Origin: Escherichia coli
GTDB lineage: Bacteria; Pseudomonadota; Gammaproteobacteria; Enterobacterales; Enterobacteriaceae
DNA: 3,720 nucleotides
Assembly (NCBI RefSeq): GCF_003334335.1
Contig: NZ_QOWQ01000082.1
Reading direction: 5' to 3' (one strand)
The position numbers and the translations under genes are program-made. Shown here piece after piece: positions 2,869 to 3,252 of this stretch. Under the pieces are notes generated by a model. The model was not told the DNA's origin, made no database searches, and saw only the letters and a program-made list of their open reading frames with translations. Numbering within the stretch: the stretch's first letter is position 1; each line of letters starts with the position of its first letter.

Positions 2869-3252
2869 ATGGCAACAAAAGAAGAAAATCTGAATCGTCT
2901 TCGTCAACTGGCTGGCCTGCTGGGGCGCGAGGCGGATATGTCGGGGAGTGCTGCGGATATTGCTCAACGTGTGTCTGAGTGGGAAGAGGAGCTTGCTGTT
3001 TCCCCGGAGGGCATTATGCACTCTGATGAGAGCGGGGCTGATCAAAATCACACAGACGATGGTGAGCAGTTGAACAACACGGATGCTCCGGATGATGTTA
3101 AAGCCGTCCGGGTACGGAAGTGCCTGCAAGTAATGGGGTATTGCCCGGAGACAGGTCGTCCCGTTGAGCTGGCGTTACGGGGTATGCGTGTTCTGGTGCC
3201 ATCATCACTGGCAACGGCCATGATACAGCACGGAACGGCTGAATATGCGTGA
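2869..3252 (+). CDS. FI: Head assembly / DNA-packaging accessory protein, gpFI-like
   Basis: ORF in the frame of track ORF 2821-3252, with start reassigned to ATG 2869 because of the strong SD immediately upstream; the GTG at 2821 lies inside the terminator hairpin. About 127 aa, stop TGA 3250-3252. Position between E and FII and size match lambda FI (about 132 aa). It has an acidic, low-complexity central segment. Sequence similarity to lambda gpFI is only weakly recalled, so the call rests mainly on synteny and size. Confidence 0.75.
   Translation: MATKEENLNRLRQLAGLLGREADMSGSAADIAQRVSEWEEELAVSPEGIMHSDESGADQNHTDDGEQLNNTDAPDDVKAVRVRKCLQVMGYCPETGRPVELALRGMRVLVPSSLATAMIQHGTAEYA

What the first reader, a model, noticed from the sequence alone, without database searches (positions are those of the whole stretch)
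3245..3252. FI/FII start-stop overlap (ATGCGTGA) suggesting translational coupling
The FII start codon ATG (3245-3247) overlaps the last codons of FI, whose TGA stop is at 3250-3252. There is no strong independent SD for FII (only a weak GGAACGG upstream). This suggests FII translation depends on ribosomes terminating FI, tying the two head-completion proteins to fixed relative amounts.
Basis: partly seen in the sequence, partly recalled or inferred. Interest (0 to 1): 0.2.

Follow-up and report, generated by a model that had tools for sequence, protein, structure and literature searches.

The report
Ordinary FI/FII start-stop gene overlap
The eight-base overlap between the end of the phage DNA-packaging helper gene FI and the start of the head-tail joining gene FII is real and conserved. 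It is also a common arrangement, already annotated in phage 21 and in hundreds of E. coli prophages, and probably lets ribosomes finishing FI restart on FII.

Summary
FII starts at ATG 3245-3247, and FI ends two codons later at TGA 3250-3252, giving the 8-nt overlap ATGCGTGA. Both gene identities are solid. The only Shine-Dalgarno (SD)-like sequence, GGAACGG at 3232-3238, pairs with 16S rRNA no better than 42% of random 20-nt stretches of the window.

The junction is not new. The same octamer is annotated in phage 21 (GenBank M81255 and OL657228). FI+FII DNA like the window's is present at ≥80% coverage in 860 of 5,426 complete E. coli genomes. In a near-identical phage, 10 of 17 late-operon junctions overlap. 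The literature ranks ATGNNTGA as the third most common same-strand gene arrangement, at the edge of the termination-reinitiation range.

Coupling is plausible but untested. Relatives such as lambda, N15, phi80 and Gifsy-1 have a 9-11 nt spacer, usually with a strong SD. The phage-21 clade has lost that spacer, so FII lacks an SD of its own. Against obligate coupling:
- The FII start region is fairly unstructured.
- Gene Z also lacks an SD without overlapping its neighbour.
- Only six gpFII copies are needed per virion.
- Published work shows coupling need not fix protein ratios.

Verdict: real, ordinary and already known, with low interest.

The parts
2858..2863 (+). Strong Shine-Dalgarno sequence AGGAGG of FI, which drives the upstream translation that would feed any coupling
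   Evidence: Duplex with the 16S rRNA 3' end is -10.3 kcal/mol. Only 1.4% of 20-nt stretches of the window do as well.
2869..3252 (+). FI gene (DNA-packaging chaperone, 127 aa), stop TGA 3250-3252
   Evidence: PHROG 92, E = 9e-47 over residues 1-126. The same start and stop are annotated in the 99%-identical phage PhiR12_1. It aligns end to end with lambda, N15, phi80 and phage 21 FI.
3232..3238 (+). GGAACGG, the only SD-like element upstream of FII, embedded in FI codons Gly-Thr-Ala
   Evidence: -4.1 kcal/mol, which is background level. The equivalent GGA/GGAA is the 'putative' ribosome-binding site in both phage 21 records. GGA is conserved in all nine upstream sequence variants among 80 close relatives.
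3245..3252 (+). Octamer ATGCGTGA: FII start codon (3245-3247) overlapping the last FI sense codon and the FI stop (3250-3252)
   Evidence: Direct reading. Invariant in 80 of 80 IMG/VR loci, and in phage 21, PhiR5_1, and E. coli YDC107 and Nissle 1917.
3245..3598 (+). FII gene (head-tail joining / head closure protein, 117 aa)
   Evidence: PHROG 82, E = 2e-51. PDB 1K0H gpFII, E = 8e-52, residues 1-117 to 1-117. 70% identical to lambda FII.

Best explanation
This is the FI/FII junction of a phage-21-type lambdoid prophage late operon.

FI has a strong ribosome-binding site and is translated well. When a ribosome reaches the FI stop UGA (3250-3252) in its A site, the P site holds GCG (3247-3249). 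The FII AUG (3245-3247) then lies only 2 nt upstream of the P-site register. A fraction of post-termination ribosomes, or their 30S subunits, slip back those 2 nt and reinitiate on FII. The weak GGA contact about 10 nt upstream may help.

Because this lineage lacks the SD-containing spacer that relatives have, reinitiation probably supplies much of FII's modest translation. Only six gpFII copies are needed per virion.

Shown: the geometry, the absence of an SD above background, conservation of the octamer, and the presence of a spacer (usually with a strong SD) in homologous junctions elsewhere.

Inferred: that reinitiation actually occurs, and what share of FII synthesis it provides. The 2-nt repositioning is my own geometric reasoning.
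For: - Overlap and frames.
- FII start confirmed by full-length colinearity with lambda gpFII.
- SD strengths: FII -4.1 against FI -10.3, with 42% of random stretches matching FII's value.
- Survey of 170 loci and 44 distinct junctions. The -8 class has median SD -4.85. The +9 to +11 class has median -9.4, usually placed right after the FI stop (Mann-Whitney p = 4e-5).
- 27 of 34 spacer-type FII starts already carry an out-of-frame TGA at +6 to +8 ([A/G]TGGCTGA). Loss of the FI stop and spacer would therefore create exactly this overlap.
- No promoter-like or terminator-like site lies between FI and FII.
- Literature: -8 ATGNNTGA is the third most common unidirectional arrangement, and -8 to +6 is the window indicative of termination-reinitiation (PMC10666635). 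Four of five native overlapping E. coli pairs were coupled (PMC6728339).
Against: - There are no expression data for this junction.
- The -8 class is a single clade, so the SD contrast is one evolutionary event and not 10 independent ones.
- -8 overlaps reinitiate less efficiently than -4 or -1 (PMC10666635). Increasing overlap lowers coupling faster than increasing spacing (PMC12548453).
- An SD normally aids reinitiation in E. coli (PMC6728339), so a missing SD does not by itself imply coupling.
- The FII start region costs 11.6 kcal/mol to open, the 15th percentile of the window. A free 30S subunit could therefore load de novo.
- Z has an even weaker SD (-3.3) with a 14-nt gap.
Confidence: 0.55

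Rival explanations
1. FII is translated independently at a low level. Free 30S subunits load de novo on an accessible, SD-poor, U-rich start region. The 8-nt overlap is a neutral by-product of a deletion that removed the FI stop and the spacer. Low output suffices because only six gpFII copies are needed per virion.
For: - The FII start region is easier to open than 85% of window positions, and the local fold is no more stable than shuffles (z = 0.57).
- Z in the same operon has a background-level SD and no overlap, yet must be expressed.
- A latent TGA at +6 to +8 in 27 of 34 spacer-type FII starts makes the overlap an automatic result of a deletion.
- gpFII is a hexamer (PMC10721106).
- One of five overlapping E. 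coli pairs initiated de novo (PMC6728339).
Against: - Ribosomes terminating FI physically occupy the FII start, so some interaction is hard to avoid.
- Most tested native overlapping pairs are coupled (PMC6728339).
- Every other lineage keeps a spacer with an SD (34 of 34 distinct junctions have the spacer, median -9.4). This suggests FII initiation needs some help.
Confidence: 0.3
2. Coupling works by RNA unfolding. The SD-like GGA is held in a helix between GUUCUG (3190-3195) and CGGAAC (3231-3236). Ribosomes translating FI melt the helix and expose the FII start to new 30S subunits.
For: - RNAalifold on 15 distinct junction sequences predicts this helix.
- 98.9% of cells are paired, against 33-58% when the partner is slid by 1-3 columns.
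- One compensatory pair, G-C to A-U, separates the window-type from the 21-type FI alleles.
Against: - There is only one compensatory change, so one event, and both changes are also amino-acid changes in FI.
- The helix is 6 bp across a 35-nt loop and is thermodynamically weak.
- The fold z-score is 0.57.
- The start codon itself is not sequestered, and the start region opens more easily than most of the window.
- The covariation term is only -0.44 kcal/mol.
Confidence: 0.1
3. The overlap is an annotation artefact. Either FII really starts elsewhere, or FI and FII are joined by a programmed frameshift into a fusion protein.
For: Nothing specific. I considered it because lambda late genes include a frameshift (G/G-T) and nested products (C/Nu3).
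Against: - 3245 is the first possible start in its frame, since TGA at 3221-3223 closes the frame upstream.
- The next in-frame ATG is codon 23, which would delete the N-terminal helix (residues 4-24) that forms the gpFII ring (PMC10721106).
- The product is colinear 1-117 with lambda gpFII.
- Only eight codons (3224-3247) are open for a +1 shift, and I see no slippery run there.
- Spacer-type relatives have a stop and an untranslated spacer between the genes.
Confidence: 0.03

Closest known systems
Phage 21 ORF1 (FI homologue) / gene 8 (FII homologue) junction, GenBank M81255 and OL657228
   Same: The octamer ATGCGTGA is identical, with the same 8-nt overlap and the same GGA(A) 10 nt upstream annotated as a putative ribosome-binding site. 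FII is 88% identical.
   Different: The FI allele is diverged (47% identity). The FI C-terminus is VYA in place of EYA. The best SD-like pairing differs slightly (-4.9 at spacing 10, against -4.1).
Lambda FI/FII junction (NC_001416, 7600/7612)
   Same: The genes are homologous, in the same order, and in the same late operon. The FI stop is still close to the FII start. The FII start carries the same latent out-of-frame TGA (GTGGCTGA).
   Different: Lambda has an 11-nt untranslated spacer with a strong SD (GGGAGG, -10.3 kcal/mol) and a GTG start. A terminating ribosome would have to move 17 nt forward, not 2 nt back (the geometry is my inference).
The -8 nt (ATGNNTGA) class of overlapping unidirectional gene pairs, coupled by termination-reinitiation (PMC10666635, PMC6728339)
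   Same: The window shows the same sequence pattern, on the same strand, within one operon, in an E. coli context.
   Different: Coupling was measured on pairs whose native spacing is -4 to +1 nt, and I found no -8 pair among those tested. An intragenic SD is usual in E. coli pairs and helps reinitiation, and here it is at background level.
Other overlapping junctions of the same late operon (W/B, Z/U, H/M and K/I at -4; M/L at -1; B/C at -11; A/W at -17)
   Same: The operon uses the same compact organisation. Low-copy virion or assembly proteins follow their upstream gene without a spacer.
   Different: FI/FII is the only -8 junction in the operon. Its upstream partner, FI, has its own long intergenic region and a strong SD.

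Membership tests
Lambda FII / head closure Hc1 family (PHROG 82; PDB 1K0H) | Full-length sequence homology to gpFII | tested here: met
   PHROG 82, E = 2e-51. 1K0H, E = 8e-52, residues 1-117 to 1-117. 70% identity to lambda.
Lambda FII / head closure Hc1 family (PHROG 82; PDB 1K0H) | Position between FI and Z in a lambda-type head-tail operon | tested here: met
   The order C/Nu3-D-E-FI-FII-Z is seen in the window and in the annotated relatives.
Lambda FI DNA-packaging chaperone family (PHROG 92) | Sequence homology to gpFI, located between E and FII | tested here: met
   PHROG 92, E = 9e-47 over 1-126 of 127 aa. Alignment with lambda, N15, phi80 and phage 21 FI. No PDB sequence hit at E <= 0.01.
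Gene pair coupled by termination-reinitiation | Same strand, cotranscribed, with no promoter or terminator between the two genes | tested here: met
   The genes overlap. No promoter-like or terminator-like site was found in 2869-3598 on the + strand.
Gene pair coupled by termination-reinitiation | Stop-start distance within the effective window (about -8 to +6 nt) | tested here: met
   The distance is -8 nt, at the edge of the window given in PMC10666635.
Gene pair coupled by termination-reinitiation | Translation of the downstream gene falls when upstream translation is stopped early | not testable with these tools
   This needs reporter fusions or ribosome profiling. No such data were found in the paper library.
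Gene pair coupled by termination-reinitiation | Intragenic SD upstream of the downstream start (usual but not obligatory in E. coli) | tested here: not met
   -4.1 kcal/mol, matched or exceeded by 42% of random 20-nt stretches. This feature is not strictly defining (PMC6728339).
Gene pair coupled by RNA unfolding | The downstream start region is sequestered in a stable, conserved secondary structure that upstream translation melts | tested here: inconclusive
   A 6-bp helix over the GGA has one compensatory pair. However, the fold z-score is 0.57, and the start region is at the 15th percentile of opening cost.

The most novel reading that the evidence does not exclude
The phage-21 clade lost about 19 nt, comprising the FI stop and the SD spacer. 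It thereby switched FII from SD-driven initiation, as in lambda, N15, phi80 and Gifsy-1, to reinitiation by ribosomes that step 2 nt backwards after terminating FI. Nature would then supply matched homologous junctions (+11 with an SD, against -8 without) in otherwise interchangeable operons. That would be a clean system for measuring how efficient and how obligatory -8 reinitiation is in E. coli.
Probability: 0.35. Interest if true: 0.25.

Novelty: already known. Interest (0 to 1): 0.1.

Why it matters
It matters little on its own. It is one more compact junction in a phage late operon where most low-copy assembly genes abut or overlap their upstream neighbour.

The modest value is comparative. 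The same two genes occur in nature with two junction designs, a spacer with a strong SD or a -8 overlap without one. Swapping the two designs would be a simple way to quantify reinitiation at -8 overlaps. Published work ranks that arrangement as the third most common gene-pair geometry, and I found no -8 pair among those tested experimentally in the papers I read. It would also show how phages set the yield of a six-copy virion protein relative to an abundant chaperone.

Tried and rejected
- Local RNA structure at the junction: the minimum-energy fold is no better than shuffles (z = 0.57). The small hairpin around the AUG seen in the window is not kept in phage 21 (read).
- Rfam scan of the whole window at E <= 1: no match.
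- PDB sequence search with FI: no hit.
- FI-FII frameshift fusion: rejected. A stop lies in the FII frame at 3221-3223 and there is no slippery run.
- Alternative FII starts: rejected. 3245 is the first start in the frame, and the next ATG would remove the N-terminal helix.
- Lambda expression data: the lambda ribosome-profiling paper (PMC3718152) and the gpFI structure paper (PMC3442539) are not held. A search for the 1988 study of lambda late-gene translation rates found only a citing paper. PMC5737525 has no per-gene FI/FII data. I therefore make no claim about measured FI:FII ratios.
- L073 as a natural FI nonsense 'experiment': FI there is broken by a frameshift as well as a stop, in an unexpressed prophage context, so it is uninformative.
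- I did not run a genome contigs or metagenome scan. Five lineages and 44 distinct junctions from two viral-contig scans and the phage collection already settled the comparison.

Full report
**What the window is.** The 3,720 bases are part of a lambda-type late (head) operon, all on the + strand.
- The 3' part of C with nested Nu3 lies at 1-1347.
- The D-type decoration gene lies at 1384-1731.
- The major capsid gene E lies at 1789-2817.
- FI lies at 2869-3252 and FII at 3245-3598.
- The start of Z is at 3613.

PHROG profiles confirm each assignment: FI is PHROG 92 (9e-47) and FII is PHROG 82 (2e-51). E, the decoration protein and the protease/scaffold are also matched. FII matches solved lambda gpFII (1K0H) from residue 1 to 117 at E = 8e-52. 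The closest records are E. coli phages PhiR12_1, _2, _4 and _5 (99.0%) and E. coli prophages such as those in DA33133 and UTI89 (99.5-99.6%).

**Checking the observation.** Positions 3241-3252 read GAATATGCGTGA. FI ends ...GAA TAT GCG TGA, with its stop at 3250-3252. FII begins ATG CGT GAT at 3245.

ATG 3245 is the first possible start codon after the in-frame stop TGA at 3221-3223. It aligns with residue 1 of lambda, N15, phi80 and phage 21 FII.

The SD-like GGAACGG is at 3232-3238. Its best pairing with the 16S rRNA 3' end is -4.1 kcal/mol with an internal loop. 42% of all 20-nt stretches in the window reach that value. For comparison, Nu3 scores -12.0, FI -10.3, D -6.3, E -5.6 and Z -3.3. 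So 'no strong independent SD' is correct.

One wording needs correction. FI is a packaging chaperone that is absent from the virion, not a head-completion protein (PMC4856287, PMC10721106).

**How common and how conserved the overlap is.**
- The same overlap is annotated in the near-identical PhiR12 phages, PhiR5_1, and RefSeq prophages of strains YDC107 and Nissle 1917.
- It is annotated in both phage 21 records. The M81255 record gives ORF1 at 7599..7973 and gene 8 from 7966, with a 'putative' ribosome-binding site on GGAA.
- FI+FII DNA like the window's is present at ≥80% coverage in 860 of 5,426 complete E. coli genomes.
- In 80 IMG/VR loci whose FII is 97-100% identical, the octamer is invariant. 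It sits behind nine different upstream sequences from at least three FI alleles.
- High nucleotide identity between the window, phage 21 and PhiR5_1 begins at about 3232, the GGAA. The upstream part of FI is strongly diverged. Many E. coli megablast hits start exactly at query position 364, which is window 3232.
- In PhiR12_1, 10 of 17 late-operon junctions overlap by 1 to 29 nt. Long spacers occur only before D, E, FI, G and the separately annotated T ORF.
- Published surveys rank -8 (ATGNNTGA) third after -4 and -1 among unidirectional gene pairs. They treat -8 to +6 as the window indicative of termination-reinitiation, with -8 less efficient than the shorter overlaps (PMC10666635).

**Comparison with homologous junctions.** I surveyed 170 FII loci from the phage collection, E. 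coli genomes and two IMG/VR scans. They gave 44 distinct junction sequences.

| Junction class | Distinct junctions | FII N-terminus or lineages | SD pairing, median (range), kcal/mol |
|---|---|---|---|
| -8 overlap | 10 | MRDF(Q/E)N; one FII clade | -4.85 (-3.9 to -7.0) |
| +9 to +11 spacer | 34 | lambda, N15/mEp237/HK225, phi80, Gifsy-1 and other lineages | -9.4 (-4.3 to -11.7) |

In the spacer class, a purine-rich SD usually begins right after the FI stop. The difference between the classes is significant on distinct sequences (Mann-Whitney p = 4e-5). However, the overlap class is a single clade, so this is effectively one evolutionary event.

FI proteins of both classes end at the same aligned position. 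27 of 34 spacer-type FII starts already carry an out-of-frame TGA at +6 to +8 ([A/G]TGGCTGA). By inference, losing about 19 nt (the last two FI codons, the stop and the spacer) would produce exactly the present overlap and an FI of the same length.

**Mechanism.** With UGA 3250-3252 in the A site, the P site holds 3247-3249. The FII AUG at 3245-3247 is then 2 nt upstream of the P-site register. This is the same displacement as in the familiar AUGA overlap but in the opposite direction. In lambda the shift would be 17 nt forward. This geometry is my inference.

FI has one of the best SDs in the window, so terminating ribosomes should be plentiful. The most likely reading is that some of them reinitiate on FII, giving low-level synthesis that suits a protein needed at six copies per virion (PMC10721106).

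Several points argue against obligate coupling or a fixed ratio:
- The FII start region costs 11.6 kcal/mol to open, the 15th percentile of window positions. D, E and FI cost 8.1-9.8.
- The local fold is not unusual (z = 0.57).
- Z has an even poorer SD with a 14-nt gap.
- In E. coli an SD generally aids reinitiation, and one of five overlapping pairs was uncoupled (PMC6728339).
- Coupling can saturate, so downstream output need not track upstream output (PMC12548453).

A weak alternative is coupling by RNA unfolding. A 6-bp helix, GUUCUG 3190-3195 with CGGAAC 3231-3236, covers the GGA. It shows one compensatory G-C to A-U change between FI alleles. That is a single event in a marginally stable helix.

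**Verdict.**
Coupling by termination-reinitiation is the best explanation (about 0.55) but is untested. 'Fixed relative amounts' goes further than the evidence and the literature allow.
- The feature is already known: it is annotated in the phage 21 GenBank records and in hundreds of genomes. It belongs to a well-described class and deserves low interest.
- Its only added value is as a natural counterpart to the spacer-type junction for measuring reinitiation at -8 overlaps.

Noticed in passing
window 2825-2855 (+), between the E stop (2817) and the FI start (2869): A strong terminator-like hairpin, GCGGGGGCGAAATGCCCCCGT, followed by GTCTTTTTTC (9 pairs, 7 G-C). N15 and HK225 annotate a rho-independent terminator at the same spot. 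Lambda has a hairpin there too (ATGGCCCTTCGGGGCCAT) with a weaker T-run. It may lower the level of transcript downstream of the abundant D and E genes, or stabilise the upstream mRNA.
   Followed up: partly
window 1739-1770 (+), between the D stop (1731) and the E start (1789): A second terminator-like hairpin, TCAGGCCACCATGGCGGCCTGA, followed by CTGATTTCTG.
   Followed up: no
window 3596-3615: The FII stop TAA (3596-3598) is followed 14 nt later by the Z start ATG 3613. Z's SD pairing is at background level (-3.3 kcal/mol; 54% of random stretches do as well). So Z may also depend on upstream translation, or SD-poor starts may be normal for low-copy genes in this operon.
   Followed up: partly
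window 3190-3195 with 3231-3236: A possible helix, GUUCUG/CGGAAC, covers the SD-like GGA. It is paired in 98.9% of cells across 15 distinct relatives, with one compensatory G-C to A-U change between FI alleles. This is one event only, and both changes alter FI residues.
   Followed up: partly
window about 3232: A boundary in sequence similarity. Identity to phage 21 and PhiR5_1 jumps to near 100% from GGAA onwards, about 13 nt before the FII start. Many E. coli prophage hits start exactly there. The last six FI codons therefore travel with the FII module and not with the rest of FI.
   Followed up: partly
window 731-747: The internal ATG at 745, inside the C reading frame, is preceded by GAGGAGG. 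This is the strongest SD in the window (-12.0 kcal/mol) and is consistent with the nested Nu3 scaffold start known from lambda.
   Followed up: partly
window about 780-1200: The scaffold (Nu3) part encodes three degenerate copies of a motif...EQARAILAAAAP...EKARPILAAAP and ...ENARAVLAAGS. Weak DNA direct repeats are spaced 72-156 nt apart.
   Followed up: no
L073 776-1133 (IMGVR_UViG_2645727717_000008): One relative has a broken FI, with a frameshift plus a TTA-to-TAA stop 67 nt before the FII start, while FII and Z are intact. This is probably a decaying prophage or an assembly error.
   Followed up: partly
window 1789-3249 (proteins E and FI): PHROG 2353, a 481-position 'major head protein' profile, matches E over profile positions 1-314 and FI over 361-477. 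Some phage records therefore seem to carry E and FI as one fused or mis-joined protein.
   Followed up: no
phage collection record MW057783.1 (hit H37): A record named 'Campylobacter phage CJLB-4' (48,361 bp) holds an FII that scores the same against the window as lambda's does (70.4% identity), at nearly the same coordinate as in lambda. It looks like a lambda genome under another name.
   Followed up: no
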